The notes under the pieces: generated by a model
The model's database searches: none
What the model was told of the DNA's origin: nothing
The model's input: the letters and a program-made list of their open reading frames with translations, nothing else
Part shown: piece after piece, positions 3,001 to 33,554 of the stretch
Position numbering within the stretch: the stretch's first letter is position 1
Layout of the letters: each line of letters begins with the position of its first letter
DNA from: Trypanosoma brucei
Taxonomy: Eukaryota
Direction of reading: 5' to 3'
NCBI GenBank assembly: GCA_000002445.1
Contig: CP000071.1
Span: forward strand, 1,920,001 to 1,984,000
DNA length: 64,000 nucleotides
Program-made: the position numbers and the translations under genes

Positions 3001-3119
3001 GATTTTTATTTTCTAAAATAATGATAATAATGATAATAATAATAATGGTGGAGGAAAGCGCTGCATTGCAAATAAATGAAAGGAATCGTAAAGAAAAATA
3101 AATGGGACAAAAGGTAAAA

Positions 3120-3150
<31 letters not shown>

Positions 3151-17700: not shown

Positions 17701-19367
17701 ATACGGCCCGAACTCCACTCATTAAAGAGGTCTCGCCTTGGTGCATCTAAGGTCTGACCAGTTAACGCCATAGCTGGAAGGTCATAGGCGCGGAGCGCGT
17801 AGACCTGATCCTGAATCAGAGAAACAAGGGGGGATATTACAATGGTGACTTTCGCCGGATTTGGTAACAGCGCCGGTAGTTGGTAGCAGAGAGACTTGCC
17901 TCCTCCGGTTGGCAAGAGCACGAACACGTCACGATTGGCCATACATGCATTCATAATCTCCAACTGAAGGAAACGGAAATTGTGGAGACCGAAAACATCA
18001 ACCATGGTTCGACGCAGCTCTTCCGACCACGGATAATGCTCCCCGGAAAACTCCCCCGTGGACGCTTTAGCGATGCTAACAGGGTCCTGGTTGGAACCGT
18101 GCAGCGATGCGTCCAGAAGCTCCCTCTCACATGATTCCCACGTGAAGCGATTTGGGTTATTGCCTCCTTTAAACTGAGCGGAGTAAACAGCTACCTTGCC
18201 TTCAACCACTTCTTCTGTGGCTGTGCGCAGTGCCCCTACACCAGAAAATACTTCACCACCCCGTCCCGCTGCAGCAAATGCATCGTGAGCACCATTTCCC
18301 TCACCGAATGCACCACCACTGGACTCCACTACTGATGGAAGCTGGTGGGGTGCGACACCACGCTCCCCGCTATGGGTGAAGGCCGCCCCAGCGTACCCCG
18401 GAGAGGGCGATACAAATACAGGAGCGGAGACCTGAGTAGGCACTGCCGCTGAATAAAAGCCATTAGAATCAAGCGGAACGCGTGTGCCATTCGCACCACT
18501 TGCAGAACTCAAAGTGCCAGAAACAGAACCGGGGGGTTTACTACTTGTGGCAACGACGTGAGGAAGAGAGACATTGGGGTTACGTCCTAGAAGCTCTCGC
18601 TGCCGTTGTCTTAGGTTGGCGAATAGCACCTCTAGTGCCGCCAATTTGCGGTCAGCCTCCTCCACGACCTCGCTAGTGTCACACTCCTCATTCTCCCGTA
18701 ATAGCATATCATCACGGTATCTCCTTTGACGGTGGATTTCCTCTATCACCTCCGACAAATTTGCCTTCAATTCCGATAGCGGTTGTGCTGAAGAGCCCAC
18801 AGAGGGTGCAGGAAACGAAGGTAAGGAAGAGGAAGCGACAGGCCTTCCCCCGTCAGAACCCTGCAGTGCCACATCAGTCTGCACTGTAAATCGTTCAGCA
18901 TTCCCTCCGCCACTGTTAAAAGATTGTTTCTGAGTATTTGCAGTCGCAACACACCTTTTCACATCATGCGGTACAGTCGGTCTTCCTGCCACTTCAACGC
19001 TTGTGGAGGCGGTGGCGAGAGCGGCAACCACACTTGTAGTTCTCGCCGCGGTAATAGTTGCACTACCAGCAGTAGCCGCGATGGCATTAGAATTGGTATT
19101 AACAGGATCTACTGTAGTGTTGGGATCCGGATAAACGCACACACTCTGCGTCATGTCGCAAGCATGATTCGTGGGAGCCGGAAAAGCACCGGGACCAGCG
19201 GCAAACAATTTCCGTGCCCCTTCCTCACGAGGCTGCGGGTTCGACTCACTACTGGATTGTACAGGCGGTAGACCACGAGGTAGTGGGTCGTTCTTCACTA
19301 GGGCCGCCGTGGCGCTGACTACAAGTGGGCGCCACTTATCCAAGACGCAACTTAAATCTTTGTCCAT
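14721..19367 (-). CDS. RecQ-family ATP-dependent DNA helicase; large, with long low-complexity N- and C-terminal extensions.
   Basis: Helicase motif I 'LLPTGGGKSLCYQLPAL', DEAH box 'FVVDEAHCVSQWGHDFRPDY', motif VI 'QESGRAGRDG', RecQ-C/Zn region 'CDNCASRK'. The track start at 19400 is TTG; the first ATG is at 19367 (MDKDL...). Confidence 0.9.
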   Translation of the reverse strand: MDKDLSCVLDKWRPLVVSATAALVKNDPLPRGLPPVQSSSESNPQPREEGARKLFAAGPGAFPAPTNHACDMTQSVCVYPDPNTTVDPVNTNSNAIAATAGSATITAARTTSVVAALATASTSVEVAGRPTVPHDVKRCVATANTQKQSFNSGGGNAERFTVQTDVALQGSDGGRPVASSSLPSFPAPSVGSSAQPLSELKANLSEVIEEIHRQRRYRDDMLLRENEECDTSEVVEEADRKLAALEVLFANLRQRQRELLGRNPNVSLPHVVATSSKPPGSVSGTLSSASGANGTRVPLDSNGFYSAAVPTQVSAPVFVSPSPGYAGAAFTHSGERGVAPHQLPSVVESSGGAFGEGNGAHDAFAAAGRGGEVFSGVGALRTATEEVVEGKVAVYSAQFKGGNNPNRFTWESCERELLDASLHGSNQDPVSIAKASTGEFSGEHYPWSEELRRTMVDVFGLHNFRFLQLEIMNACMANRDVFVLLPTGGGKSLCYQLPALLPNPAKVTIVISPLVSLIQDQVYALRAYDLPAMALTGQTLDAPRRDLFNEWSSGRIVCTLVYVTPEYFGRSDHFVQSLKSLENRGLLNRFVVDEAHCVSQWGHDFRPDYRKLAALKHHFPQVPISALTATATDTVQRDIIQTLGLHNAVSFKGSFNRHNLKYSVQRITSKAGSTVAEIIKKNFPPRSCGIVYCISKKDCEEMAAVLRKEGIRASYYHADASEKNEKQEQWTRDELQVLCATVAFGMGINKPDVRFVIHAAMPKSIEGYYQESGRAGRDGLSSKCFLLFAAGDRQRHEQMICGSKDSQTSMLSLCHMVGYTLNDVHCRRMQQLSYFGEHVSDHFCLTAPGDVEICDNCASRKEEGWEPEMIDVTSILIDFFNITIYIGSLTQKQLIAVYRGTSDVGNIVERRLRQKGAPPEYRKGSRHSKVLLGRVLNEGITLGVFKARFERLTEFGVCAYLDPGDSEGIKILNSMKTGQRKIQLVVRGEKRVRANRERESTIASDAVAVGERKGKSNKKDAGRNRKSASTRRGSGEQFEDDEDDDDVADDQARRPQLRSSRHAVARTSSKRKGVRDNELILGDCEGLASTSLTGRSSNNTVVIDDVTDGDASSLSEANSSSSQASPSCVEVIQQLGRKRSRANNNSSDRSTESPPALPSRVTGAAAGPLRDKGKRRTSKSKSANALGSKSFTLADAQLENIKASFLLELEALLRKLAENSDGGRKYHVMSRKTMETLAATLTEQGWGSVSQFSDLEGFGKNKVKKFGVDILRLYRKFRNEHIGDVGLLTGLEEDMLLQTTTVIADRHRLSRGSPSAGRTVDESEENTGEHTPWKGNKPPLLQGSVTPSDSDVTPQKTSVTTPYQQGSPGGDPVREGSLPTGSAPPVPMGRPSAPKKTMFKMMAAAPTNAEPQPSQQLLNNPTLEGNTLNECELPIRRTPLAESPELLSSYTQMATPLPLPGQSNRQSPSATAFECASRGGNACLPHPEEQQPKVDIMSVDYLMQMCDESLKLNALGPPAGVVPWASPDPVLQKPRRDTPPEVFTVDSQ

Positions 19368-21149
19368 AGGACAAAACACTAAAAAATAAGTAATACACAA
19401 ACTTTATACAACGACACAATACCAACCACAACCTCAAAATAAACTTGCGTATCGCTGAGAGGCGGAGTGATGTGAGCGCTGAGGCGCAAATATATAGAAA
19501 GAGGGTTAAAAAATCCCTTTCCCACAGGTTCACTGACTCCCCTCTCCAGCCAATGTACTCTTTTTTCTTTTCTGTACCCCTTCCCTAATTATGTCGTAAG
19601 GGTTGCCTACACACACACGGGTAAACAGACAGGTGATTACAAGATGGGTAAGGGTGAGAAACGAAGTTCAAATATAAACGCGTCGACGGCGGGGCACCTA
19701 ACACAAGGGCAGTATTGAAGATAATCAATGAATTCTGTGGACAGATGGAACGCAGGAAAAAAAATAAAACCAAGACATATGTAGACTGCTGCCACTGTAG
19801 GCAGGACTCTTCCTCTCCCTCTCTGTACACATTCTCTCCCATTACCCCCTACCGCTTTCCTTTTCACATACAGACACGCTTGTGAGGCGCAAAACACAAT
19901 TAGAAGAAAGGAACGGATTTACACATACACACGTAATGATCATCACCTCAGCTTAGCTGAACTCCCCGCACCCTCCAGTAAAGAATCCGAAAAATGCGTA
20001 TTTTTATCGTACCTCGAATATAACGATTGCGTTATGACCAGTAGCGATAACATCAACAACACGGAGGTCCCAGTCACCGGCAGCTCTTTTGGTAATAACA
20101 GGGAAAGAAAACACAACAAATAAATAAATAAAGTACGAACAAGAAGAATAGCATTTCCCTTTCTTCCAGCGGCTTATGGGCATCAGGAGAGGAAAGACAA
20201 TGGAAACTCCCCCAATGAAAGATGGCGGAAGCGTTGCACACACACAATCGTAAACGGGCATATACTCCTCCGTGTCTGAAACAGAAAGAACGACAAACAG
20301 ACAAGTAAAGCGATGTTATTAAGCCTACCACCGCGACAGCAAGCAGAATATATATATATATATATGAAATAGATAGACCGGTACGCCCACAGAGACAAAT
20401 AAAATTACGCCCACACACCTATTGACGGTAAAGCAACACTATAGTGATGTAATTAATGTTTACAAACCGACGTCTACGTACTAGGGAACAAATTTGATGA
20501 CAATAAAAGGTGTGTACCTCAATGGAAATGAAAAAAAAATAAGTAAAAGCACATATTTGCCGCGTAACGGAAACTGAATCATCTCGACCACATGCCTTCG
20601 CGCCTCTTTCTTTGCATTCGCATGAAACGAGAGAAAGGTTCACAAACATGTTGAATTAACTTTAGGGGAAAGAACGAAAAAATGTACAGACAAATAGGTG
20701 GTCGGTACACCCTCTCAGACATCCCTTCACACACGTGAACAGGTGCGAAGAGGCGTGACGACGACGGTAAACAAAAATAACACTGCACAGGGATCTAACT
20801 CAGGGGAAACGGAAGAATCATATTAGTGATCACAAAAAAAAATATCTTTCCCATTTTTTAGAGAAGCGAAGGCGCACAATGGTGAATGCCCGCCGAACGT
20901 AACCCACGGTGAGAATACCCTAAAGCGAATCCAGGAATACTCAAGGATATATAGACAGAGAAAGAGAAGCACAGAGACGTCTTTTTTTTTTTTTCACTCC
21001 TTGCAAACCCTTCAGTATCCGCTTCCCTCCTCAGATTTTCCTCCCCACAATCCTCTTGCACCTCCCATTGGGTGCAGGCATACAAATGCACAATGAAAAG
21101 AGGGATGAATTTTCCCAACCTTTTGTTCCGCTTCCTCACGTTTGGATCA

Positions 21150-22793
21150 TTAAGAAGCCTCCGGCGAGGTCTTGGCACTACCCCAAACACAAGAACCACG
21201 GAGCATGACATAAATCCCGACCGCAAACATCAGACTTCCAAGGAGAAACCCGACGGAAAGCATGAAGACACCCGGCGTTATATCTTCACAGTCCGGCATG
21301 GCAGTTAGCGCAATGTCGAGCATAAAATTACATTCCAGCAGCGGTCGACCTATTGAAAGTGCAACACTGACGTTACGCGACCGTGCAGCCACACGTACGA
21401 CTTCGATAGAGACGTTCTTTGCCCTGCCCTCCGTACAATTGGCCGCACACTCCACTACCGTGCAAGAATTTCCGGGAGTAGGGCATGAACCAACGAAGGC
21501 CTTCACCCGTGTGTCCTCCAGTACTGTTGCTGTGATGCCAAAGTTTGGACACTCATCGGATGAGGTGATATTCTTTCCACAAGTCAGAACCTTCACGGGA
21601 AAAGTACCACCCACATTCCTAGCTGCCGCATGACTTACAAACCCACTTGCTATGAAAGAAGCAGGGGCGTCAGGGGATATGTCGCTAGATCGCGTGTTCG
21701 GCTTACCGTTTCTGTCTTTGAGGTAACCAGAAGGCACATAACCATCATAAGATACACTTGATCCCGAAAAACGACTCATACTTGGGCCACGCATATCCAG
21801 ATTATCACAGTTATCAAGCAAATAATTGCAAGCCTCCCTACAAATGCCAATCTCCGCGTCTGTCACTTTCTTGTTAATAGCATCAGGGCGAAACTTGCTA
21901 TTGCATAATGGGATTCCGTACCACTGGATAATGCCAGGCTTTCGCTCACGGTGAAGTGCAATCTCGCCACACACAGATGAAGAAGCATAGCTCAACAGGA
22001 ACAAAACAGCACCGCCAACTGAAAAAACAAGCCCGAAAACGAAATATGCACAAGCGAAGCATTCGGGCACTATCAAAGGACCTCGGCGACAGCAAGCAAG
22101 AATAACCATCGGAGCCATCAACGCAATACATACGGAACCCACCGCATAAGAAACAACAGGTAACAACTTAATATAATCTCCCGCTCTACCTCTCAACATT
22201 TCAACAACACGAACGGCGTTTTCCGATATATCATAGAAAAAGCTCACATCAACACCATCAGCGTATGGCTCTCTATTTCCAGAGGTCCAGTTAGACGCAA
22301 AATCAATAACTTTTTCCGCAGTGCAGTTCACAACATTCAACGGATTCATCAATGTTACATCGAGAAAATAATTTGAGGTTGCCCACAACTGCTTCACCCC
22401 AAAGAACACAAATGCAGCAACACCAAAAGCCCATATTAAAGCAAACATAATCCACATCCAAAGGCAGCAACGTTGTTCCTTACCTCCGTCCTTAGAGGAA
22501 GGCTTGCAACGGGAGGAACACAGGCATGTAAGAAAGCAAGATATGGGGAAAGCAATTAACACAGCCACGAAAAGGAAAGCACAGAGAGCAGGCATTGCTA
22601 ACATACGCCACTGCGCTAAGATACGGTCGGTATCCATAATGCACGTAAGAGGGTCATTTCGAGCACTGGGCCCATCCCAGACATTGTCACAGTGAAGATT
22701 TGGAAACTTGGAGTTTCCGCATTGCGTAACTGTTAACAACAGCACCAATAACACTGCAGCATAGAAAGAGCTGCCAGTGGTAACGGAGGACAT
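21150..22793 (-). CDS. Array copy A, 547 aa: signal peptide plus 5-TM (pentaspan) Cys-rich membrane glycoprotein. It is the most divergent paralog.
   Basis: ATG at 22791-22793. N-terminal 44 aa 'MSSVTTGSSFYAAVLLVLLLTVTQCGNSKFPNLHCDNVWDGPSA' is identical to copies B-D. Hydrophobic helices lie at ~aa 65-90, 108-132, ~205-228, ~235-262 and the C-terminal 'FMLSVGFLLGSLMFAVGIYVML'. Conserved motifs: 'CLCSSRCKPSSKDGGKEQRCCLWMW' and 'ALSIGRPLLECNF'. Several N-x-S/T sequons. Confidence 0.8.
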   Translation of the reverse strand: MSSVTTGSSFYAAVLLVLLLTVTQCGNSKFPNLHCDNVWDGPSARNDPLTCIMDTDRILAQWRMLAMPALCAFLFVAVLIAFPISCFLTCLCSSRCKPSSKDGGKEQRCCLWMWIMFALIWAFGVAAFVFFGVKQLWATSNYFLDVTLMNPLNVVNCTAEKVIDFASNWTSGNREPYADGVDVSFFYDISENAVRVVEMLRGRAGDYIKLLPVVSYAVGSVCIALMAPMVILACCRRGPLIVPECFACAYFVFGLVFSVGGAVLFLLSYASSSVCGEIALHRERKPGIIQWYGIPLCNSKFRPDAINKKVTDAEIGICREACNYLLDNCDNLDMRGPSMSRFSGSSVSYDGYVPSGYLKDRNGKPNTRSSDISPDAPASFIASGFVSHAAARNVGGTFPVKVLTCGKNITSSDECPNFGITATVLEDTRVKAFVGSCPTPGNSCTVVECAANCTEGRAKNVSIEVVRVAARSRNVSVALSIGRPLLECNFMLDIALTAMPDCEDITPGVFMLSVGFLLGSLMFAVGIYVMLRGSCVWGSAKTSPEAS

Positions 22794-23350
22794 TGTTTCA
22801 CGTGCAAGTATATTACTTATACCTTTTTGTCTTCATTCCAACAACATAGGAGGAAAGCAAAAGTGATATAAAGTAAAGTGGGAATGTTGGAGACAACAAA
22901 TACAGGTATGTATGTATTCATAAACATGTGCATATATTCACAATAAAATACCGGTGTAGTAATTTAGCCAAGGCACAAGCAAATACTAGCAGTAACTCCT
23001 CGTTGATATAATCATCAGGAGACACATGCGTATAAAAAAACCACACGCAAATCATATGGAATTGCAAGTAGTGCCAATAAGGAGCGACAGCGGTAAGGCG
23101 CCTGAGCATAACCACATATTTCATTACACCCAAACTTCTAGAAGGGAAATTATCCTCCTACGAGCTGGGCGATGACTACATGCCGGCTTAACACCAACCC
23201 AAGTAGAAACCTCCACATACACACACACACACACAAAGAGGGAAAACAAACCTGCACTGAACATCGTGTTGACATGTGGTAACAGCGACACACTTAGGGT
23301 GCCGGATGGGAAAAACACATCCCCGGATATAGATATATTTAAAAAAGAGA
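22794..23350 (-). repeat. Conserved ~550 bp upstream block of the array unit (copy A). It is presumed to hold the 5'UTR, the polypyrimidine/trans-splice acceptor region and the distal 3'-processing region.
   Basis: Near-identical to 25432-25990, 28136-28690 and 30765-30954. The mRNA strand is pyrimidine-rich 60-110 nt upstream of the ATG. It contains a shared (CA)8-10. Confidence 0.7.
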
Positions 23351-23646
23351 AATGAGGACATCACTTTTCGACAAGTCACATAATCTAAGGGTTGACAGTC
23401 CGTATCTTCTTCTGAGAGGAGCTTTTTTTTCCTTTTATTCCATATTGACAGGGAAAGTAAAAACATATCGATGTATTTACATGAAATGTCTCACCTTACA
23501 CAGACAAAGTATGATGACGACACGGACAGAAACTACTAATAAAGCAATAAAAATCAAATATATAACATGTAAACTCGGGAAAGTACACACAACAAGGATC
23601 GGAGTATTCCAAGGCATCCCATATAAAATAAACACATTCACTACCC

Positions 23647-25431
23647 TCATTCTCGAACGTATTCCTTATTCTCCCTCAAATCCCCTTCATCTTTTAGTTT
23701 GTTGCAACCTTCTGGATCACTCCAAATACAGGAACCACGAAGTAGTATATAGATGGACAGCGCAAACATCATACCACCCAAGAAAAGGGCAGCCGAAAGC
23801 ATCATCGCACTACCAAAGAAATCTCCACAGTGGGGCAGAGCTGTCAGCAAAGTATCAAATATGAAGTTGCATTCCAGTAGCGGGCGACCAATGGAAAGTG
23901 CAATACTTACATTAGTTGCTAATCCCGCAACGGTGACAAGTGTACCCGCCATACCTTTAGCTTCATCTCCCCTACATTTCTCTGCGCATTCTTGCAGAGT
24001 GCACGCCCTGCCATCACCTGGGCAAATCAGATAACCCCCCTTAACCTTTGTGTCACTAATGACAGCGGCAGTAAAACCAAAACTCGAACATTCAGTGGCA
24101 TCCTGAAGACCTTTTCCACATTTGAGCGGTTTATTGTTAGGACCAAGCGGCAGGCCTAGAAACTGAGAAGTTGTAGCGGGTATTAAATTCCCGCTGCCAG
24201 GAAAACGGGACTGCAACGCGTCGGCCCCAGCTGCACCAAGAGTAACATTGGCTTTATTACTGACGTTGCTGGTAACTCCGGGTATGTTGGGTCCAAATTT
24301 AGCTTCCAACTCCTTTTCGTTTTCAAAGTCCTCTGGTTTCATGTCGGGTGGGAGAGCCTTTGGGTCCAATCCGGGTGGGAGATTCCTTCCAAGAAGGGCA
24401 GCCACTCCTCCCACACCAGTTATATCACCGAGTTGTGATGTGTCATTATCACAGTACTCGAGAATTTTTGTACATGCCTTCTGCGACACATCCTTCTGGG
24501 CATTGAAAATCATCTCGTTAAGATTCGCAAAATTAAACTTTTCTTGACACATGGGTAAAGCATACAGCTGAATCAATCCCGGGCTCCGATCGTAGTGCAA
24601 AGCAACTTCACCACAGATAGTGCCGATGACGTACGACAACAGAATCATGAGAAAACCAAGCGCCATAAACAGGATTGCAAATAGCCAATATACACACGAG
24701 AGCAACCGCGGTAACCACTTGCTACAGCAGCGGAAGTAAGCGAACACAAACATGGGAACCATCACTAAAATCGCAAAAGTTCCGATGCAGAAGGAAACAG
24801 TGGGGATCCAGCGCATATACTGCTTGTAAGCTGCCCTCCCCTCATCAATATAACCCCTAGCAAGACCAAGAACACTATCTATCGTTTCGCGACTAATTCC
24901 CTCCTGTAACGACTGATTTTTACCCCAGTCAAACGCTAATTTAAGAATCTTATCTGCAGTACAGTCTAGGAAATTTATTGGATTTTCCACCGTTTTCATT
25001 ATGAGGGTAGTGGCAGCTGTCTCAAGCTGCCGGGCTCCAAAGAACACAAATGCAGCAACACCAAAAGCCCATATTGAAGCAAACATAATCCACATCCAAA
25101 GGCAGCAACGTTGTTCCTTACCTCCGTCCTTAGAGGAAGACTTGCAGCGGGAGGAACACAGGCATGTAAAGAACCAAGATATGGGGAAAGCAACTAATGT
25201 TGCCACGAGTAATAGAGCAGCCAAGGCTGGAACAAAAATATCCTCCCAATGAGATAAGATACGTTTCTTGTCCTTAATGCACGTAAGAGGGTCATTTTGA
25301 GCACTGGGCCCATCCCAGACATTGTCACAGTGAAGATTTGGAAACTTGGAATTTCCGCATTGCGTAACTGTTAACAACAGCACCAATAACACTGCAGCAT
25401 AGGAAGAGCTGCCAGTGGTAACGGAGGACAT
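23647..25431 (-). CDS. Array copy B, 594 aa: pentaspan Cys-rich membrane glycoprotein paralog.
   Basis: ATG at 25429-25431. Same N-terminus and TM pattern as copies A, C and D. Large second extracellular loop (~280 aa) with a conserved Cys framework. Confidence 0.85.
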   Translation of the reverse strand: MSSVTTGSSSYAAVLLVLLLTVTQCGNSKFPNLHCDNVWDGPSAQNDPLTCIKDKKRILSHWEDIFVPALAALLLVATLVAFPISWFFTCLCSSRCKSSSKDGGKEQRCCLWMWIMFASIWAFGVAAFVFFGARQLETAATTLIMKTVENPINFLDCTADKILKLAFDWGKNQSLQEGISRETIDSVLGLARGYIDEGRAAYKQYMRWIPTVSFCIGTFAILVMVPMFVFAYFRCCSKWLPRLLSCVYWLFAILFMALGFLMILLSYVIGTICGEVALHYDRSPGLIQLYALPMCQEKFNFANLNEMIFNAQKDVSQKACTKILEYCDNDTSQLGDITGVGGVAALLGRNLPPGLDPKALPPDMKPEDFENEKELEAKFGPNIPGVTSNVSNKANVTLGAAGADALQSRFPGSGNLIPATTSQFLGLPLGPNNKPLKCGKGLQDATECSSFGFTAAVISDTKVKGGYLICPGDGRACTLQECAEKCRGDEAKGMAGTLVTVAGLATNVSIALSIGRPLLECNFIFDTLLTALPHCGDFFGSAMMLSAALFLGGMMFALSIYILLRGSCIWSDPEGCNKLKDEGDLRENKEYVRE

Positions 25432-25990
25432 TGTTTCACGTGCAAGTATATTACTTATACCTTTTTGTCTTCATTCCAACAACATAGGAGGAAAGCAAAA
25501 GTGATATAAAGTAAAGTGGGAATGTTGGAGACAACAAATACAGGTATGTATGTATGTATTCATAAACATGTGCATATATTCACAATAAAATACCGGTGTA
25601 GTAATTTAGCCAAGGCACAAGCAAATACTAGCAGTAACTCCTCGTTGATATAATCATCAGGAGACACATGCGTATAAAAAAACCACACGCAAATCATATG
25701 GAATTGCAAGTAGTGCCAATAAGGAGCGACAGCGGTAAGGCGCCTGAGCATAACCACATATTTCATTAAACCCAAACTTCTAGAAGGGAAATTATCCTCC
25801 TACGAGCTGGGCGATGACTACATGCCGGCTTAACACCAACCCAAGTAGAAACCTCCACATACACACACACACACACACAAAGATGGAAAACAAACCTGCA
25901 CTGAACATCGTGTTGACATGTGGTAACAGCGACACACTTACAATGCGGTATGGAATAAAGGTATTGCCGAATATTTTTTAAAAAAAGAGA
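25432..25990 (-). repeat. Conserved upstream block of the array unit (copy B).
   Basis: Sequence identity to 22794-23350 and 28136-28690. Confidence 0.7.
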
Positions 25991-26287
25991 AAGCAGTAAA
26001 CAGGGAGCAATTATTTTATACCGCAACGCAATCGAAAAGTAGAAGGTTAACTCTTTCTTCTAGTTGAATTTTAGTCCTTTTTTTCCCGACACACTAATAG
26101 GTCGAGAAAAAAATAATTACGTCCGTATTTACATGAAATGTCTCACCTCACAATCGTCCCGTGAATGCGACGCAAGCAAAAACTATTAATAAAGCAATAA
26201 AAATTAAATATATGACGTGTAAACTCGGGAAAGTATACACAACCCGAATAACAGTACTCCGGGGTGTCCCATATAAAACAAACACGT

Positions 26288-28135
26288 TTACTGTTCTTCT
26301 TTCTTCCCATACCCTTCACAGTCATTGGTCTCTTCATGATTATTATTATTTTTTTTTCCGCAATCCTCTTCATCCTCATCCTCATACTCCTCTTCTTCGT
26401 CTTCATCTTGACTTTTCAAATTAGTCCAAATACAGGAACCACGAAGTAGTATATAGATGGACAGCGCAAACATCATACCACCCAGGAAAAATCCAACAGC
26501 AAGCATCATCGTGCTGCCAAAAATGTCGGCACAGTTAGGCAAAGCTGTCAGTACGGTATCAAATATGAAGTTGCATTCCAGTAGCGGACGACCAATGGAA
26601 AGTGCAATACTTACATTAGTTGCTAATCCTGCAATAGTAACAAGTTTATTTGCCATTTCCTTAGCTTCATTCCTTCCACAGCTAGTCGCACATTCTTGCA
26701 GAGTGCATGCCCTGCCAACCTCTGGGCAGACGAAAAGCTTCCCTTTAACCTTTGTGTCACTGATGACAGCAGCAGTAAAACCAAAACTCGAACATTCAGT
26801 GGCATTCTTAAGATCCTTTCCACATTTCAGGTACTTCTCAGATGAATGAGGTAATGCACGGTAAAGCTCAGAGAGTTTAGCGTGTGCTAGGTCCCCATTG
26901 CCTTCACGAGGGTACCGCAACCCACCAGTCCCAGCTGCAACGAGAGGGAAATCACGCCGGGTGTTAGGATTACCAGCGACTCCGGGTATGTTGGGTCCAA
27001 ATTTAGCTTCCAATTCTCTTTCGTTTTCAAAGTCCTCTGGTTTCAAGTTAGCTGGTAGAGATTTTGGGTCCAATCCGGGTGGGAGATTCCTTCCAAGAAG
27101 GGCAGCCACTCCTCCCACACCAGTTATATCACCGAGTTCAGATGCATCTCCATCACAGTACTCGAGAATTTGTTCACATGCCTTCTGCGACACATCCTTC
27201 TGGGCATTGAAAACCATCTCGTTAAGATTGGCAAAATTAAACTTTTCTTGACACATGGGTAAAGCATACCATTGAATCAATCCCGGGCTCCGATCGTAGT
27301 GCAAAGCAATTTCACCACAGATGGATCCAACAGCGTACGACAACAGAATCATGAGAAAACCAAGCGCCATAAACAGGATTGCAAATAGCCAATAAACACA
27401 CGAGAGCAACCGCGGTAACCACTTGCTACAGCAGTGAAAGTAAGCGAACACAAACATGGGAACGATCAAGGAAACCGCAAAAGTTCCGATGCAGAAAGAA
27501 ACAGTGGGAACCCAATGTACGTATTGTTCATAGGTTGCCCTCCCCTCCCGAACATAACCCCTAGCAAGACCAACAACACTATCTATCGTTTCGCGACTAA
27601 TTCCATTCTGTAACGGCCGCTTTGCACTCCAGTCATACGCTAAATCAAGAATCTTATCTGCAGTACAGTCTAGGAAATTTATTGGATTTTCCACCGTTTT
27701 CATTATGAGGGTAGTGGCAGCTGTCTCAAGCTGCCGGGCTCCAAAGAACACAAATGCAGCAACACCAAAAGCCCATATTAAAGCAAACATAATCCACATC
27801 CAAAGGCAGCAACGTTGTTCCTTACCTCCGTCCTTAGAGGAAGGCTTGCAACGGGAGGAACACAGGCATGTAAGAAAGCAAGATATGGGGAAAGCAACTA
27901 ATGTTGCCACGATAATGAAAGCAGCAGCAACCGGAAATGCAATCTTCTGCCATTGGCCTTTCATGAGATCTGCATCTTTCAGACACTTCATAATTTCATT
28001 TTGAGCACTGGGCCCATCCCAGACATTGTCACAGTGAAGATTTGGAAACTTGGAGTTTCCGCATTGCGTAACTGTTAACAACAGCACCAATAACACTGCA
28101 GCATAGAAAGAGCTGCCAGTGGTAACGGAGGACAT
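26288..28135 (-). CDS. Array copy C, 615 aa: pentaspan Cys-rich membrane glycoprotein paralog with an acidic C-terminal tail.
   Basis: ATG at 28133-28135. TM helices lie at ~66-90, 111-133, 211-233, 244-270 and 555-580. Tail: 'QDEDEEEEYEDEDEED'. Confidence 0.85.
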   Translation of the reverse strand: MSSVTTGSSFYAAVLLVLLLTVTQCGNSKFPNLHCDNVWDGPSAQNEIMKCLKDADLMKGQWQKIAFPVAAAFIIVATLVAFPISCFLTCLCSSRCKPSSKDGGKEQRCCLWMWIMFALIWAFGVAAFVFFGARQLETAATTLIMKTVENPINFLDCTADKILDLAYDWSAKRPLQNGISRETIDSVVGLARGYVREGRATYEQYVHWVPTVSFCIGTFAVSLIVPMFVFAYFHCCSKWLPRLLSCVYWLFAILFMALGFLMILLSYAVGSICGEIALHYDRSPGLIQWYALPMCQEKFNFANLNEMVFNAQKDVSQKACEQILEYCDGDASELGDITGVGGVAALLGRNLPPGLDPKSLPANLKPEDFENERELEAKFGPNIPGVAGNPNTRRDFPLVAAGTGGLRYPREGNGDLAHAKLSELYRALPHSSEKYLKCGKDLKNATECSSFGFTAAVISDTKVKGKLFVCPEVGRACTLQECATSCGRNEAKEMANKLVTIAGLATNVSIALSIGRPLLECNFIFDTVLTALPNCADIFGSTMMLAVGFFLGGMMFALSIYILLRGSCIWTNLKSQDEDEEEEYEDEDEEDCGKKNNNNHEETNDCEGYGKKEEQ

Positions 28136-28690
28136 TGTTTCACGTGCAAGTATATTACTTATACCTTTTTGTCTTCATTCCAACAACATAGGAGGAAAGC
28201 AAAAGTGATATAAAGTAAAGTGGGAATGTTGGAGACAACAAATACAGGTATGTATGTATTCATAAACATGTGCATATATTCACAATAAAATACCGGTGTA
28301 GTAATTTAGCCAAGGCACAAGCAAATACTAGCAGTAACTCCTCGTTGATATAATCATCAGGAGACACATGCGTATAAAAAAACCACACGCAAATCATATG
28401 GAATTGCAAGTAGTGCCAATAAGGAGCGACAGCGGTAAGGCGCCTGAGCATAACCACATATTTCATTACACCCAAACTTCTAGAAGGGAAATTATCCTCC
28501 TACGAGCTGGGCGATGACTACATGCCGGCTTAACACCAACCCAAGTAGAAACCTCCACATACACACACACACACACAAAGAGGGAAAACAAACCTGCACT
28601 GAACATCGTGTTGACATGTGGTAACAGCGACACACTTAGGGTGCCAGATGGGAAAAACACATCCCCGGATATAGATATATTTCTTAAAAG
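28136..28690 (-). repeat. Conserved upstream block of the array unit (copy C).
   Basis: Sequence identity to 22794-23350 and 25432-25990. Confidence 0.7.
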
Positions 28691-28979
28691 AGAAAGCAGT
28701 AAACAAGGAATTTTTTTCCACAGCTAATTTAGGGAGAAAAAGTCAATGTTTTCTTCCGACCGAAACATATATTCCCTTTTTACCCATACTGACAGGGAAA
28801 GTAAACACATATCTCTGTATTTACATGAAATGTCTCACCTCACAATCGTCCCGTGAATGCGACGCAAGCAAAAACTATTAATAAAGCAATAAAAATTAAA
28901 TATGTAACGTGTAAACTCGGGAAAGTACACACAACCCGAATAACAGTACTCCGGGGTGTCCCCCATCCAGTACACGCAA

Positions 28980-30764
28980 TTATTTCCTTGCAGGGCTTTT
29001 GTCAGACTCCCTTTTGTTCTCAGAGTCCTTCTCTTCATCTTCATCCCATCTTTTCAGATCACTCCAAACACAAGATCCACGAAGTAGTATATAGATGGAC
29101 AGCGCAAACATCATACCACCCAAGAAAAATCCAAGACCAAGCATCATCGTTCCCCAATACAAACCGTCACAGTTAGGCAGAGCAGTCAGTACGGTATCAA
29201 ATATGAAGTTGCATTCCAACAGCGGGCGACCAATCGAAAGCCCAATGCTTACATTAACTGCGAGTTGAGCAGCACCCACAAGTGTTTTTGCAATGTTTTG
29301 TGCGTCCGGAACTTTACACTTATCTGCACAAACTTGCAGACTGCAGGGTCTGCCACCATCCGGACAAACCATATAACCCCCCTTAACTTTTGTTCCACTG
29401 ATGACCGCGGCGGTGAAACCAAAGGTTGAACATTCTTCTTTGCTTCCAACCCCCTGGCCACATGTCAGCATCTTATTGCTAGGGCCAAATGGCAGTTGGG
29501 GGAACTGAGTCGCCTTGGCACCAATTACATCCCTCATGTTCCCCGGTAGTGAACCATCAGGGGGAACGCTGCCTTCATAGCGGCGTGGAATCTTCTCCTT
29601 ATCATTAACTCCTGGGATATGTGACTCCAATAAGCTGTCCAAACCCTTTTCGTCTTCAAAGTCCTCTGGTTTCACTCCAGGTGGGAGAGCCTTTGGGTCC
29701 AATCCGGGTGGGAGATTCCTTCCAAGAAGAGCAGCCAGCCCTCCTGTGCCGGTTTGATCACCGAGTTGTGATGTGTCATTATCACAGTACTTGAGAATTT
29801 CTTCACATGCCTTCTGCGACACATCCTTCTGGGCATCTAAAATCATTTTGTTAAGATTCGCAAAATTAAACTTTTCTTCACACATGGGTAAAGCATACCA
29901 TTGAATCAATCCCGGGCTCCGATCGTAGTGCAAAGTTATTTCCCCGCAGACGAGACCGAAGGCATACGCCAACAATAGAATTACTAAACCAAGCGCCGTA
30001 AACAGGATTGCAAATAGCCAATATACACACGAGAGCAACCGCGGTAACCACTTGCTACAGCAGCGGAAGTAAGCAAACATAAACATGGGAACCATCACTA
30101 AGACCGCAAAAGCTCCGATGCAGAAAGAAACAGTGGGAACCCAATGTACGTACTGATCGTAATACCCTTTCGCCATGGTAATGTAACTCCTCGCCATGTC
30201 AACGGTGCTATCTATTGTTTCCCGGCCAATTCCCTCCCGCAGTGGCTCTCCTGTCCTCCAGTCATACGCTAAACCAAGAATCTTATCCGCGGTACACCTG
30301 AGGGAATTCAGCGGTCTGTTAACCCGGTGAGATAGCAAATCGTCCAACGTTATCTTAAGCTGCTGTGCTCCAAATAAAACGAAGACAGCAACACCAAAAG
30401 CCCATATAAAAGCAAACGCAATCCACATCCAAAGGCAGCAACGTTGTTTCCTACCTCTGTCCTTAGAGGAAGGCTTGCAACAAGAGGAACACAGGCATGT
30501 GGAGAAAAAGGTCAGTGGAAAAATGACCACGATTAAGGCGAGAAGTAAACCAGCCAAAACTGGTAACAAAATATCCTCCCAATGAGATAAGATACGTGTC
30601 TTGTCCTTAATGCACGTAAGAGGGTCATTTTGAGCACTGCGTGTAGTCCACAATTTCTGGCAGCCGAGATTTGGAAACTTGGAATTTCCGCATTGCGTAA
30701 CTGTTAACAGCAGCACCAATAACACTGCAGCATAGGAAGAGCTGCCAGTGGTAACGGAGGACAT
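28980..30764 (-). CDS. Array copy D, 594 aa: pentaspan Cys-rich membrane glycoprotein paralog.
   Basis: ATG at 30762-30764. Same architecture as copies A-C. The N-terminal ectodomain segment differs ('NLGCQKLWTTRSAQ'). Confidence 0.85.
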   Translation of the reverse strand: MSSVTTGSSSYAAVLLVLLLTVTQCGNSKFPNLGCQKLWTTRSAQNDPLTCIKDKTRILSHWEDILLPVLAGLLLALIVVIFPLTFFSTCLCSSCCKPSSKDRGRKQRCCLWMWIAFAFIWAFGVAVFVLFGAQQLKITLDDLLSHRVNRPLNSLRCTADKILGLAYDWRTGEPLREGIGRETIDSTVDMARSYITMAKGYYDQYVHWVPTVSFCIGAFAVLVMVPMFMFAYFRCCSKWLPRLLSCVYWLFAILFTALGLVILLLAYAFGLVCGEITLHYDRSPGLIQWYALPMCEEKFNFANLNKMILDAQKDVSQKACEEILKYCDNDTSQLGDQTGTGGLAALLGRNLPPGLDPKALPPGVKPEDFEDEKGLDSLLESHIPGVNDKEKIPRRYEGSVPPDGSLPGNMRDVIGAKATQFPQLPFGPSNKMLTCGQGVGSKEECSTFGFTAAVISGTKVKGGYMVCPDGGRPCSLQVCADKCKVPDAQNIAKTLVGAAQLAVNVSIGLSIGRPLLECNFIFDTVLTALPNCDGLYWGTMMLGLGFFLGGMMFALSIYILLRGSCVWSDLKRWDEDEEKDSENKRESDKSPARK

Positions 30765-30954
30765 TGTTTCACGTGCAAGTATATTACTTATACCTTTTTG
30801 TCTTCATTCCAACAACATAGGAGGAAAGCAAAAGTGATATAAAGTAAAGTGAGAATGTTGGAGACAACAAATACAGGTATGTATGTATTCATAAACATGT
30901 GCATATATTCAATAAAATACCGGTGTAGCAATTTAGCCAAGGCACAAGCAAATG
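30765..30954 (-). repeat. Truncated conserved upstream block of the array unit (copy D). It ends at the stop codon of the Mus81-like gene.
   Basis: Identical to the other copies for ~190 bp. It then diverges exactly where the upstream gene's CDS ends (30955). Confidence 0.7.
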
Positions 30955-32799
30955 CTAGCAGTAACTCCTCGTCAATATAAATTTTGTTAGACACAAATAT
31001 ACTTCTTTTTGTGGCTTCGTCAGGCGATGTATATCTGGGTCAGCGTCGCAGGCATCTACTCCTTGGTATTTCAGCCGGCGCCACAGCCCCAACAGAGAAC
31101 CATACTTCGACGCGAGCTGAATTGCCAGAGGTGCAGAGCAACCCCTTATACACATAAGCATGCGGGGAAATGTAGTCCGAGCCTGGATATCCTTTCTTAT
31201 TTTGTTGATGTATTGTAGGCATTCAGTGCAGTTAGTTACCAACGTTTCTGGGCATTGTTCCATTTTAGTTTTGCACAGTATTGAGCCTACTGACTTCCCA
31301 AGGCTACGGAGAAAGGTGGCTGTTTCAGACAAATGACGTGTCCACACGACACGGAAACGTGGAAGAGACGCAAGCGAGGCACAAGCAGAAAGAACCCGCC
31401 GTCGCTCCTCAACCGTGATGGACTCCATTGTTCCCTCCACAACCCACACAACAGAACGGAAAGGGGACGATGACAGCAGTTGCCGCTGCTCGTAGTAACG
31501 TGAAGAGGTAATGCTGGCACAAAGATCCTTTACTGTTTTCCTTTCCACCACAAGGAATGAGATTTTTTGCGTCTGTCCGTACATTGCCCCTTCACGAAGA
31601 ACAGTGCAACCGGCAGCGTTGCGGCATTGATAATCCGGCACGTTCGCCGAGTTTGCTGAGCACCCAACATTAGGTGAATTGATTCCTATCATAAAGTCTC
31701 CGCACGGGAGGGTGCATGAAACACTAGGCGCGCCGGCGCGGGAACATACTTCGATTAGGTTTTCGTGTGCACCCTTGATGCGTTCGCGGTTATCAACGAG
31801 AAGGTGCCAAGAATAGTTGTTGGAGCAACCCTCTTCTTTAGGCGTCTCGTTTTCATCAGCATCTATATCAGTAGTATTTGTCGGCATGCTGGGTGTTGAA
31901 TGCACCAGCTTCCTTTCCCTCTGCTGGGAGGCAACAAACTCCTTTGGAGTTCCTAGAAGTCGGCCCTGTGGTTCTGACCCTCCTTCCGCCAACGAAGTAG
32001 TTGGTGCAATGTCGGTGTTGGGTGAACGGAACAACGTCCTGAGGCGTTGACCGTGTCGGATCATATCGCTTACTGTTGAAGTGTGCCCTGCAGAGCTCAT
32101 AGATCTGGAGCACCTTTCCGAATCCTCCCTGAGGTGGGACAACACCTCAGCTTGAGAATCAGGAACATATCGTGGTTTCGGTGAAGTCTCCGCAAGCTTA
32201 GAGGCGCCGTGTTTACGGAGCCTCGCGATGAGATGCACTTTGGTTCCACTACCCAAGAGGCCTTTGGACAAACATCGATCGCGCAGCTCCCTCCAACTGA
32301 GTTTTTCCTCCGGTAGTGGCTCACCACTTTGACAACCGGTGGTTGAAGAATGCATTAAACTCGTACCCGCTTCCCCACGAGAGTTATGGAGCTGGTCAAA
32401 GTGCCAGTCAGAATTGCCACTCCACACTGCCGGCTGGCCAGAGAGTAAAGGGGGACCACCTTCTGTGCGCTGCATTTTAAAACAGCGGAATGGCGAGAAG
32501 GGGAAGCTAACGGACCTCCTCAGCGCAGCAACAGAAACCTCGCCGTCTCGTGCAAGCATTTCATCATTCGTAGAGTTGTCATCGCCCAAAACTTCTCGAC
32601 CGTGGCGGGGGGCCAACATTGCGCAGAACGCTTCCGTCGCACGAACGGCCTCTGGACAACTGCCATGAAGCTGCGTCCCAGCGGCGCCACTGCTAATTGG
32701 CAGTGGATATCGCCTCAACGCGGCGCAAAATTCTGGAAAGCGCTGAGGCCATCTACGCTCAATATACGAGGCAATTCTTTCGTTATGGCTGTTCGGCAT
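30955..32799 (-). CDS. ERCC4-family structure-specific endonuclease with a SAP-like motif and C-terminal HhH region; Mus81-like.
   Basis: ERCC4 catalytic motifs 'LLVDNRERIKG' and 'FLVVERKTVKDLCASI'. SAP-like 'LSWRELRDRCLSKGLLGSGTKVHLIARLRKHG'. The ~614 aa size fits Mus81 rather than XPF. The track start at 32829 is TTG; the first ATG is at 32799 (MPNSHNER...). Confidence 0.65.
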   Translation of the reverse strand: MPNSHNERIASYIERRWPQRFPEFCAALRRYPLPISSGAAGTQLHGSCPEAVRATEAFCAMLAPRHGREVLGDDNSTNDEMLARDGEVSVAALRRSVSFPFSPFRCFKMQRTEGGPPLLSGQPAVWSGNSDWHFDQLHNSRGEAGTSLMHSSTTGCQSGEPLPEEKLSWRELRDRCLSKGLLGSGTKVHLIARLRKHGASKLAETSPKPRYVPDSQAEVLSHLREDSERCSRSMSSAGHTSTVSDMIRHGQRLRTLFRSPNTDIAPTTSLAEGGSEPQGRLLGTPKEFVASQQRERKLVHSTPSMPTNTTDIDADENETPKEEGCSNNYSWHLLVDNRERIKGAHENLIEVCSRAGAPSVSCTLPCGDFMIGINSPNVGCSANSANVPDYQCRNAAGCTVLREGAMYGQTQKISFLVVERKTVKDLCASITSSRYYEQRQLLSSSPFRSVVWVVEGTMESITVEERRRVLSACASLASLPRFRVVWTRHLSETATFLRSLGKSVGSILCKTKMEQCPETLVTNCTECLQYINKIRKDIQARTTFPRMLMCIRGCSAPLAIQLASKYGSLLGLWRRLKYQGVDACDADPDIHRLTKPQKEVYLCLTKFILTRSYC

Positions 32800-33554
32800 T
32801 AACACATCAAAGAGCAAGTTTGCATGCAAAAGACCTTCCCGTCCACCTTATACAAAAATGGATGTTCCCGCTTTTGACTGGCCTTTGAACGACGGTCAAC
32901 GCTGGCGCCTTCCATTAGCCCGCAGAAGCGGGAAACGTTTGTGAGAATAAGAAGCAAAAAGGAATGGGATCAGTGCAATGTACAAGAGCAACAAAACGCA
33001 TGTTGGGCGGGTGAGTGAATGGACAACACAAACACGAAGAATCACCATTCACTTTTCACACACTCAGGCACACCAACGGAACAGACGTGATAGTAGATTG
33101 CTATTCGTTAGACAAAATAGGGACAGAAGAAAGGCAAAGGGGGACAAGATACGATCTCAGTGCTCTGGAAACTTGCTGATTCTCTTTTTTCTTTTCGGAC
33201 ATTTCTTTCTTTTTTTGTGCATATACCTCTCTCCACAACCAATCTTTACTGACCCATTCCCATTCGCTCCCACTTCCTTTTCTCACGTCTTCTACATTGT
33301 CCTTGGCTCCTTCACCTTCCCTCCCCTGGCTTCTGTCCCCCCCCCTACGCGTTAGGTGTGCTTAACAAGGGCTAAGTTAAAATAAAATAATGGTGATAAC
33401 AAGAAATACAAATAAACAAATAAATATATACGCTAAACGCACTTTGCCTATTTTATTACTTTTTTATTAAAAAAAAAAAAATAACTCCGTTAATTTACTT
33501 TTTGTATCCCTTTTCTTAGTTAAACACCTTAGGCTCCACCGAAAAAGAGTGAAC

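What the first reader, a model, noticed from the sequence alone, without database searches (positions are those of the whole stretch)
21150..30954. Tandem array of four pentaspan membrane-protein genes with concerted evolution of the flanks and divergent ectodomains
Four head-to-tail paralogs start at 22793, 25431, 28135 and 30764 (unit 2.63-2.70 kb). They share an identical 44-aa signal-peptide N-terminus and a ~550 bp upstream block. Copies B-D also share a ~200 bp 3'UTR block. The long extracellular loops differ extensively, and copy A diverges over its entire 3' half. Homogenised regulatory and leader sequence with diversified surface loops is the signature of gene conversion plus diversifying selection. 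That pattern is typical of parasite surface-protein families. I could not match the conserved motifs ('CLCSSRCKPSSKDGGKEQRCCLWMW', 'ALSIGRPLLECNF') to any named family from memory.
Basis: seen in the sequence. Interest (0 to 1): 0.75.

Follow-up and report, generated by a model that had tools for sequence, protein, structure and literature searches.

The report
Trypanosome Tweety/Prominin-like surface protein array
The four tandem genes are Trypanosoma brucei Tb927.8.6700-6730, an already catalogued bloodstream-stage surface-protein array (Fam72/ESP24) patched together by gene conversion, and I find that they are distant, apparently unreported relatives of the animal Tweety/Prominin five-pass membrane proteins.

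Summary
Four head-to-tail minus-strand genes (547, 594, 615 and 594 aa) encode proteins with a signal peptide and five TM segments. Upstream DNA and the leader are near-identical, the rest of each gene is a mosaic, and copy A is an old paralog with an overwritten 5' end.

The window is T. b. brucei TREU927 chromosome 8. Much is already published:
- The array is Jackson's tandem array 75, with concerted evolution shown and 4 copies against 3 in T. b. gambiense.
- It appears under family number 72 in the cell-surface phylome.
- Tb927.8.6730 is ESP24, abundant in the bloodstream-form surface proteome, GFP-localised over the entire cell surface, and about 6-fold bloodstream-enriched.

Gene conversion is supported: dS is about 0 in converted tracts, and a run test gives p<=0.0002 for every pair. 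Diversifying selection is not supported. dN/dS is 0.37-0.47 overall and 0.26-0.72 in the loops among B-D, and the most divergent stretch aligns with a segment predicted disordered in copy A.

The parts
21150..22793 (-). Copy A, last gene of the array in transcription order (547 aa; XP_847500 / Q57TU3; inferred Tb927.8.6700). It is an old paralog whose 5' end (upstream DNA plus about 130 codons) has been overwritten by the B/C type.
   Evidence: AF2 model of this copy has pLDDT 84.8
23647..25431 (-). Copy B (594 aa; XP_847501 / Q57TU2; inferred Tb927.8.6710). It is a mosaic: D-like in codons ~31-60 and C-like in codons ~76-180. Its sequence cluster has no T. b. gambiense member.
   Evidence: Jackson 2010
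26288..28135 (-). Copy C (615 aa; XP_847502 / Q57TU1; inferred Tb927.8.6720), with an acidic C-terminal tail. Detected with 138 spectra in the bloodstream surface proteome.
28980..30764 (-). Copy D, first gene of the array (594 aa; XP_847503 / Q57TU0; Tb927.8.6730 = ESP24). Surface-localised and bloodstream-enriched.
   Evidence: the coordinates chr8:1949017-1950801(-) and the 594 aa length match
22794..23343 (-). Homogenised upstream block of copy A, 96-100% identical to the block upstream of C and mostly 99-100% to B's. Contains the polypyrimidine tract / splice-acceptor region.
   Evidence: (D3, D8, D9)
25432..25985 (-). Homogenised upstream block of copy B.
28136..28686 (-). Homogenised upstream block of copy C.
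30765..30995 (-). Upstream region of copy D. Only these proximal ~230 nt match the other copies. It runs into the last ~40 nt of the ERCC4-nuclease CDS (stop codon at 30955-30957).
   Evidence: (D8)
22986..23026 (-). Relic copy of the 3' end of the ERCC4-nuclease CDS (...ACGAGGAGTTACTGCTAG) inside the A-B spacer. It marks the original duplication breakpoint. Equivalent relics lie at 25628-25668 and 28328-28368.
   Evidence: (D8)
28803..28962 (-). 3'UTR block downstream of copy D. It is 94% identical to 26111-26270 (downstream of C) and 65% to 23461-23620 (downstream of B). It is absent downstream of A.
   Evidence: (D7)
30955..32829 (-). Upstream neighbour and array boundary: an ERCC4-domain nuclease with a sub-threshold SAP-domain match (Mus81-like). 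It is not part of the family.
14721..19400 (-). Downstream neighbour and array boundary: a RecQ-type helicase.

Best explanation
SHOWN. The locus is the T. b. brucei TREU927 chromosome 8 array Tb927.8.6700-6730. It encodes four paralogous glycoproteins with a signal peptide, five TM helices, the N-terminus outside and the C-terminus inside. There are two short basic, Cys-rich cytoplasmic loops and two extracellular loops of about 80 aa and 240-310 aa carrying about 16 conserved cysteines.

The proteins form a divergent kinetoplastid branch of the Tweety (TTYH)/Prominin pentaspan superfamily. In the model, TM2-TM5 continue outward as a helical extracellular bundle, as in TTYH. The kinetoplastid branch adds an N-terminal Cys-containing segment and an extra Cys-rich subdomain with a disordered insert in loop 2.

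The array arose by tandem duplication of a unit whose upstream breakpoint lay in the last ~45 nt of the neighbouring ERCC4-nuclease gene. It is kept as a mosaic by repeated gene conversion or unequal exchange. That process has homogenised the trans-splicing/5' region and the first ~130 codons across all copies, including the anciently diverged copy A. The remainder evolves under purifying to relaxed selection.

FROM THE LITERATURE. Copy D (ESP24) and copy C are abundant in the bloodstream-form surface proteome. ESP24-GFP covers the flagellar pocket, cell body and flagellum. ESP24 is about 6-fold higher in bloodstream than in procyclic forms.

INFERRED. By analogy with TTYH2, which passes lipids between lipoprotein particles and the membrane through a membrane-open hydrophobic cavity, and with Prom1/Ttyh1, which bind cholesterol and bend membranes, these proteins most likely handle outer-leaflet lipids at the parasite surface. 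That could mean lipid exchange with extracellular carriers, stabilising curved membrane, or both. The differing 3' flanks, especially that of copy A, probably give the paralogs different life-cycle expression.
For: Identity:
- All four proteins match TREU927 entries XP_847500-847503 exactly.
- The published coordinates and length of Tb927.8.6730 match copy D.

Topology: hydropathy and sequon positions; AF2 model with pLDDT 84.8 and pTM 0.78, built without templates.

Superfamily placement:
- The 87-sequence family profile hits solved TTYH2 at E=3e-8 in two collinear stretches (TM1-TM4 and pre-TM5/TM5). It also hits TTYH1 at 4e-5 and TTYH3 at 3e-3.
- hhalign of the family profile against a TTYH2 profile gives 92.9%, E=3.6e-7.
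- The nine best Foldseek hits are all TTYH, with probability 0.98-1.0, and the next hit has 0.06.
- Bridging members: P0141 (Apiculatamorpha, Prokinetoplastina) is a full-length family member (hhalign 100%, E=8e-47) and passes the Pfam Tweety cutoff (42.4 bits against 31.8). P0042 passes the Pfam Prominin cutoff (36.1 against 34.3). P0033 hits both families.

Gene conversion:
- dS is about 0 in the leader, cytoplasmic loop 1 and TM2, against up to about 1-2 elsewhere.
- Upstream blocks are 99-100% identical over most of their length.
- The run test gives p<=0.0002 for every pair.
- The ERCC4 relic is present in every spacer.
- Concerted evolution is published in Jackson 2007 (PMC1855330) and Jackson 2010 (PMC2854126).

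Surface location and stage: Gadelha 2015 (PMC4587319); Urbaniak 2012 (PMC3344917).

Functional analogy: Sukalskaia 2025 (PMC12328215); Bell 2024 (PMC10659291).
Against: - None of the four window proteins reaches Pfam's gathering score for Tweety (best 17.4 bits against 31.8) or Prominin (12 against 34.3).
- Foldseek TM-scores to TTYH are low (0.27-0.40), and its E-values are only 3e-3 to 8e-2.
- The hhalign match to TTYH2 covers only 103 columns, and the TTYH2 alignment used was shallow, vertebrate-only and partly fragmentary.
- No functional experiment exists for this family.
- The Urbaniak quantification rests on two peptides. Paralogs share peptides, so spectral counts per copy are approximate.
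Confidence: 0.6

Rival explanations
1. One reading: a parasite-specific surface-antigen-like family whose exposed loops are driven apart by diversifying (immune) selection, while gene conversion keeps the regulatory and leader sequence uniform.
For: The loops are the most divergent parts and the proteins are surface-exposed in the bloodstream stage. A 14-codon patch at the tip of loop 1 has 12 non-synonymous and 0 synonymous differences between B and C. Jackson 2013 reports accelerated rates in the T. congolense copies.
Against: dN/dS is below 1 in all sizeable regions and pairs, and synonymous divergence follows the same mosaic. The EL1-tip signal has p of about 0.05 before any multiple-testing correction. 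The most variable stretch aligns with a segment predicted disordered in copy A. There are only 4 copies, in a chromosome-internal locus that is syntenic from T. brucei to Leishmania. A free-living kinetoplastid has a full-length member.
Confidence: 0.12
2. Prominin-like membrane shapers: the proteins mainly stabilise or generate curved membrane (flagellar membrane, flagellar pocket, nanotubes) and drive extracellular-vesicle release, without carrier-to-membrane lipid transfer.
For: Prom1 and Ttyh1 both induce vesicle and tubule formation (PMC10659291). Several family members score on Pfam Prominin, and one passes the cutoff. The Cys-rich TM1/cytoplasmic-loop-1 junction resembles that of prominin (that resemblance is from my own knowledge). 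ESP24 is present on the flagellum and flagellar pocket.
Against: ESP24 is spread over the entire surface and is not concentrated on curved domains. Extracellular loop 1 is about 80 aa, far below the >300 aa used to define prominins. Structural matches are to TTYH. This view is not exclusive of the best explanation.
Confidence: 0.2
3. Anion channel: the proteins form Ca2+- or swelling-activated chloride channels, as TTYHs were first annotated.
For: Only the historic annotation of the TTYH family (reference list seen).
Against: The channel role of TTYHs was later refuted by structural and functional studies (PMC12328215). In the model of copy A, apart from the poorly modelled signal peptide, the only membrane helices are the five peripheral TM helices, with no re-entrant or pore-lining element.
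Confidence: 0.04

Closest known systems
Tweety homologues TTYH1-3 (Pfam PF04906; solved structures 7P5J, 7RTT, 9QNR)
   Different: Sequence identity is about 10-12%. The window proteins fall below Pfam's Tweety cutoff. They have a cleavable signal peptide and a conserved N-terminal 'C..W.GPS..N..C' segment. Loop 2 is much larger (about 240-310 aa) and holds an extra Cys-rich subdomain and a disordered insert. APOE binding, the Ca2+ site and dimerisation were not tested.
Prominins (CD133; Pfam PF05478)
   Same: Pentaspan 2+2+1 topology, a signal peptide, a Cys-rich TM1/loop-1 junction and a large glycosylated second extracellular loop. One family member passes the Prominin cutoff and several score at E of 1e-4 to 1e-6.
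   Different: The proteins are about 550-615 aa, against a 799-position Pfam Prominin model. Loop 1 is only about 80 aa. The sequence similarity is confined to TM1-loop-TM2. The near-invariant TM5 tryptophan of prominins has no conserved counterpart in the family consensus.
Trypanosome family number 72 / tandem array 75 / ESP24 (Jackson 2007, 2010, 2013; Gadelha 2015)
   Same: It is this locus. The proteins are identical in sequence, the copy number matches, and concerted evolution, surface location and bloodstream enrichment are already published.
   Different: Those papers list the genes only as 'hypothetical'; Gadelha's table gives no Pfam motif for ESP24. I found no paper linking them to Tweety or Prominin.

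Membership tests
Tweety / TTYH (Pfam PF04906) | The protein scores above Pfam's gathering threshold (31.8 bits) | tested here: not met
   Best window protein is copy D at 17.4 bits, E=0.0019. The family member P0141 passes at 42.4 bits and is a full-length homolog of the window proteins.
Tweety / TTYH (Pfam PF04906) | Five TM helices in a 2+2+1 pattern, N-terminus extracellular, C-terminus cytoplasmic | tested here: met
   Hydropathy, a signal peptide, basic short loops and all sequons in the predicted outer loops; helices in the AF2 model.
Tweety / TTYH (Pfam PF04906) | Profile-level sequence homology to bona fide TTYHs | tested here: met
   hmmsearch of the family profile against the PDB: TTYH2 E=3e-8, TTYH1 4e-5, TTYH3 3e-3, with collinear stretches. 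hhalign against a TTYH2 alignment: 92.9%, E=3.6e-7, but over only 103 columns.
Tweety / TTYH (Pfam PF04906) | TTYH fold: an extracellular helical bundle formed by extensions of the TM helices | tested here: met
Tweety / TTYH (Pfam PF04906) | A wide hydrophobic, lipid-filled cavity open to the outer leaflet; a homodimer formed through the extracellular domain | not testable with these tools
The feature is described in PMC12328215.
Tweety / TTYH (Pfam PF04906) | Binds apolipoprotein or lipoprotein and accelerates lipid transfer | not testable with these tools
   Requires biochemistry (PMC12328215).
Prominin (Pfam PF05478) | The protein scores above Pfam's gathering threshold (34.3 bits) | tested here: not met
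   Copies B and C score 12.0 and 10.3 bits. The family member P0042 passes at 36.1 bits.
Prominin (Pfam PF05478) | Two large extracellular loops (>300 aa in the Bell et al. curation) | tested here: not met
   Loop 1 is about 80 aa and loop 2 about 240-310 aa. The criterion comes from PMC10659291.
Prominin (Pfam PF05478) | A near-invariant tryptophan in TM5 (human W795) | tested here: inconclusive
   The four copies have a Trp just after TM5 ('RGSC-x-W'), but the 87-sequence consensus there is 'GQK-x-F' with no conserved Trp. No residue-level alignment to Prom1 was possible.
Trypanosome family number 72 / ESP24 (Tb927.8.6700-6730) | Sequence identity with the deposited genes and their chromosomal position | tested here: met
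   Exact-sequence look-up returns XP_847500-847503 on the 2,481,190-bp TREU927 chromosome. The published coordinates and length of Tb927.8.6730 equal those of copy D.
Variant or diversifying parasite surface-antigen family | Excess of non-synonymous over synonymous change in exposed regions | tested here: not met
   NG86 dN/dS is 0.26-0.72 in the loops among B-D and 0.37-0.47 overall. There are only 2-4 of about 40 windows with pN>pS. The single patch has p of about 0.05, uncorrected.
Variant or diversifying parasite surface-antigen family | Lineage-specific, expanded, often subtelomeric | tested here: not met
   There are four copies between housekeeping genes. The locus is syntenic in T. congolense, T. 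vivax, T. cruzi and L. major. Homologs occur in a free-living prokinetoplastid.

The most novel reading that the evidence does not exclude
Fam72/ESP24 proteins could be the trypanosome counterpart of TTYH2. On this reading they are surface, flagellar-pocket and endosomal devices that dock host lipoprotein particles (LDL/HDL) and unload lipids and sterol into the parasite membrane. That would give a molecular handle on how bloodstream T. brucei acquires host lipids, which from my own knowledge it cannot make in sufficient amounts and for which no lipoprotein receptor gene has been identified. The paralog-specific tip of loop 1 and the variable insert of loop 2 would then tune binding to different host apolipoproteins.
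Probability: 0.12. Interest if true: 0.8.

Novelty: new member of a known kind. Interest (0 to 1): 0.4.

Why it matters

What is added here is a family assignment for one of the more abundant 'hypothetical' multipass proteins of the bloodstream trypanosome surface. It belongs to the Tweety/Prominin superfamily, whose animal members have recently been tied to lipoprotein-to-membrane lipid transfer and to membrane bending.

That turns an unannotated surface family into one with specific, testable hypotheses about lipid scavenging from host lipoproteins, vesicle and nanotube formation, and sterol binding. It also shows that the superfamily reaches into kinetoplastids, including a free-living prokinetoplastid. 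ESP24 is an invariant, exposed, bloodstream-enriched protein, which gives it some practical interest as a diagnostic or drug-delivery target.

Tried and rejected
- AF2 on the four paralogs alone gave an unusable model (pLDDT 42.8). It was replaced by the run on the 87-sequence alignment.
- The word-indexed homolog search found only T. brucei-group, T. congolense and T. theileri proteins, even with the profile. The exhaustive HMM search was needed to see the family.
- Single-sequence searches against the PDB and Pfam gave only sub-threshold or spurious hits: Dynein_AAA_lid, Radial_spoke and DUF2207_C. I treated these as noise from TM or acidic low-complexity segments.
- The afdb50 fold library was not available.
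- Literature searches for 'ESP24/Fam72' were swamped by human FAM72.
- UniProt accession searches found nothing.
- The Gunasekera 2012 supplements hold none of the four gene IDs.
- The Shimogawa 2015 surface proteome is not held.
- I considered that the divergent loops reflect positive selection. I rejected this as a general explanation on the dN/dS results and kept only as a weak lead for the EL1 tip.
- I considered an anion-channel role and rejected it because that role has been refuted for TTYHs.
- The plus-strand ORFs overlapping the genes (for example 21262-21633 and 26457-26849) are antisense by-products of the six-frame ORF listing, and I did not pursue them.

Full report
OBSERVATION

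The region holds four head-to-tail ORFs on the minus strand:
- A, 21150-22793 (547 aa)
- B, 23647-25431 (594 aa)
- C, 26288-28135 (615 aa)
- D, 28980-30764 (594 aa)

Start-to-start spacing is 2638, 2704 and 2629 nt. Transcription runs from D to A.

Hydropathy shows a signal peptide and five TM segments in each copy. The two short internal loops are basic and Cys-rich ('CLCSSRCKPSSKDGGKEQRCC' and 'RCCSKWLPR'). All N-glycosylation sequons and about 16 conserved cysteines lie in the N-terminal segment and the two predicted outer loops, of about 80 aa and 240-310 aa. The 'pentaspan' description is correct.

- The first 44 residues are identical only in A, B and C, apart from F/S at position 10. 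D diverges from residue 34.
- The ~550-nt upstream block is 99-100% identical over most of its length only in A, B and C. D is the first copy, and it shares only the proximal ~230 nt.
- The 3' block is 94% identical between C and D but only 65% in B.
- Copy A falls to about 50% nucleotide identity from around codon 135 onward.

IDENTITY OF THE LOCUS

All four translations are exact matches to T. b. brucei TREU927 proteins XP_847500-847503 (Q57TU3 to Q57TU0) on the 2.48-Mb chromosome 8. Published coordinates for Tb927.8.6730 are chr8:1949017-1950801(-), 594 aa, and they fit copy D. Accession order then makes A-D Tb927.8.6700, 6710, 6720 and 6730.

The flanking genes are a RecQ-type helicase at 14721-19400 and an ERCC4-domain nuclease with a sub-threshold SAP-domain match at 30955-32829. 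The known tandem TCTP pair follows.

WHAT IS ALREADY PUBLISHED

Jackson 2007 lists this locus as tandem array 75. It is syntenic in T. brucei, T. b. gambiense, T. congolense, T. vivax, T. cruzi and L. major. Mean Ds is 0.77 and Dn 0.37. An orthologous tree is rejected and a concerted one is not.

Jackson 2010 reports, as I read the table row (its header was not visible), four copies in T. b. brucei against three in T. b. gambiense, with a significant recombination test. My cluster look-up agrees, since copies A, C and D have gambiense counterparts and B does not.

Jackson 2013 lists the family under number 72 in its rate-test table, and Gadelha 2015 labels it Fam72.

Gadelha 2015 found Tb927.8.6730 (207 spectra) and 6720 (138 spectra) strongly enriched in the surface-labelled bloodstream proteome. 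They also detected 6710 (7 spectra) and named 6730 'ESP24'. [quoted passage not shown]

Urbaniak 2012 gives log2(procyclic/bloodstream) of -2.61 for the protein and -0.9 to -3.0 for the mRNA. It is therefore bloodstream-enriched to about the same degree as ISG75.

GENE CONVERSION VERSUS DIVERSIFYING SELECTION

Nei-Gojobori estimates by topological region show that synonymous divergence is itself mosaic. dS is about 0 in the leader, cytoplasmic loop 1 and TM2 for all pairs, but 0.5-1.9 in the loops. For A against B-D it is saturated over most of the gene.

Copy B is D-like in codons ~31-60 and C-like in codons ~76-180. A GENECONV-style permutation of polymorphic sites gives p<=0.0002 for the longest shared run in every pair.

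Each intergenic spacer carries a copy of the last ~45 nt of the ERCC4-nuclease CDS ('...ACGAGGAGTTACTGCTAG'). This fixes the upstream breakpoint of the original duplication unit. Gene conversion or unequal exchange is therefore well supported.

Diversifying selection is not supported:
- dN/dS is 0.37-0.47 overall and 0.26-0.72 in the loops among B-D.
- pN exceeds pS in only 2-4 of about 40 windows per pair.
- The most divergent, indel-rich stretch (EL2b) corresponds to residues 338-396 of copy A, which AF2 predicts to be disordered (pLDDT 39-45).

The one exception is a patch at the tip of loop 1, codons 164-177. It has 12 non-synonymous and no synonymous differences between B and C. Fisher p is about 0.05 before correction, so this is only a lead.

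FAMILY PLACEMENT (THE NEW PART)

Single-sequence searches gave only sub-threshold hits: Tweety E=0.0019, and Prominin E=0.056.

An exhaustive profile search found 139 cluster representatives, 114 of them at E<=1e-10. Most have a signal peptide plus five TM segments and are about 500-600 aa long. Named members come from T. congolense, T. vivax, T. theileri and T. melophagium. There is also a fifth T. brucei paralog on chromosome 11.

Evidence from the 87-sequence alignment:
- Its profile hits solved TTYH2 (E=3e-8), TTYH1 (4e-5) and TTYH3 (3e-3). There are two collinear stretches, covering TM1-TM4 and the pre-TM5 'L-D/E-C' segment plus TM5.
- hhalign against an alignment of Pfam-annotated TTYH2 sequences gives 92.9%, E=3.6e-7.
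- AF2 on the alignment gives a confident model (pLDDT 84.8, pTM 0.78, no templates). TM2-TM5 continue as long extracellular helices.
- Foldseek's top nine hits are all TTYH, with probability 0.98-1.0, although TM-scores are low.

Bridging members close the chain:
- P0141, from the free-living prokinetoplastid Apiculatamorpha spiralis, is a full-length family member (hhalign 100%, E=8e-47 over 458 columns). It passes Pfam's Tweety threshold.
- P0042 passes Pfam's Prominin threshold.
- P0033 scores on both families.
- The chr11 paralog scores on Prominin at 6.8e-5.

I conclude that this is a divergent kinetoplastid branch of the Tweety/Prominin superfamily. It is not a canonical member of either Pfam family. 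The window proteins fail both gathering thresholds, and loop 1 is far too short for a prominin.

I found no paper making this link. Bell et al. do mention putative prominins in 'excavates'.

MECHANISM

Shown: topology, fold class, mosaic evolution and, from the literature, surface location and stage enrichment.

Inferred: function. TTYHs are no longer regarded as anion channels. [quoted passage not shown] It accelerates lipid transfer through a hydrophobic cavity that opens from the outer leaflet. [quoted passage not shown]

The most economical reading is that these trypanosome proteins handle outer-leaflet lipids at the parasite surface. The bolder reading is that they help unload host lipoproteins. 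It is attractive because the proteins are abundant, exposed and bloodstream-enriched, but nothing tested here supports it directly.

Copy A has an unrelated 3' flank and does not appear in the bloodstream surface-proteome tables searched. It may serve another life-cycle stage. This is also inference.

VERDICT

The array is already catalogued and localised. The added value here is the superfamily assignment and the hypotheses it opens.

Interest is moderate (0.4). Novelty: a new, divergent member of a known kind.

Noticed in passing
window 1-5000: An AT-rich stretch (GC 0.28-0.29 over the first 4 kb, against about 0.50 elsewhere), full of short A-rich and AT low-complexity repeats and with no long ORF. 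Its nature is unknown; it could be a long UTR or intergenic region, or a degenerate element.
   Followed up: partly
window 33555-34067 and about 35132-35680 (minus strand): A tandem pair of TCTP genes (Pfam PF00838, E=1.6e-46). A 300-nt stretch spanning the 3' part of the coding region (33522-33821 vs 35132-35431) is 95% identical between the two copies. This is a second, smaller tandem duplication just upstream of the array.
   Followed up: partly
window 14721-19400 and 30955-32829 (minus strand): The array is bracketed by two recombination/repair genes. One is a RecQ-type helicase (DEAD, Helicase_C, RecQ_Zn_bind and HRDC domains). The other is an ERCC4-domain nuclease with a sub-threshold SAP-domain match (Mus81-like). 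This is probably coincidence, but it is curious for a locus shaped by gene conversion.
   Followed up: no
window 22986-23026, 25628-25668, 28328-28368 (compare 30955-30995): Each intergenic spacer keeps a relic of about 40-45 nt from the 3' end of the ERCC4-nuclease coding sequence, including its stop codon. This fossil marks the breakpoint of the first duplication.
   Followed up: yes
P0017 cluster (XP_828270.1 / Q4FKA7, T. brucei chromosome 11): A fifth, unlinked 570-aa paralog of the family exists in T. brucei. It matches the profile at E=3e-121 and Pfam Prominin at E=6.8e-5. Any knock-out experiment would have to take it into account.
   Followed up: partly
P0012 (3193 aa) and P0055 (1869 aa) from the representative library: P0012 contains about six consecutive pentaspan units (nine matched stretches). 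P0055 carries one family unit inside a much longer protein. Both are most likely gene models read through or fused, in P0012's case through a tandem array of this family in another species. That would imply tandem arrays of the family are common.
   Followed up: no
window 21150-22793 (copy A) and its 3' flank 20290-21149: Copy A has a downstream region unrelated to those of B-D. None of the Gadelha 2015 supplementary tables I searched lists it, whereas D, C and B have 207, 138 and 7 spectra. This suggests different stage regulation.
   Followed up: partly
window copy B 24901-24942 / copy C 27605-27646 (codons 164-177, tip of extracellular loop 1): A cluster of eight changed codons (12 non-synonymous and 0 synonymous nucleotide differences) between B and C, inside an otherwise recently converted tract. 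The same positions also differ in D. Uncorrected p is about 0.05.
   Followed up: partly
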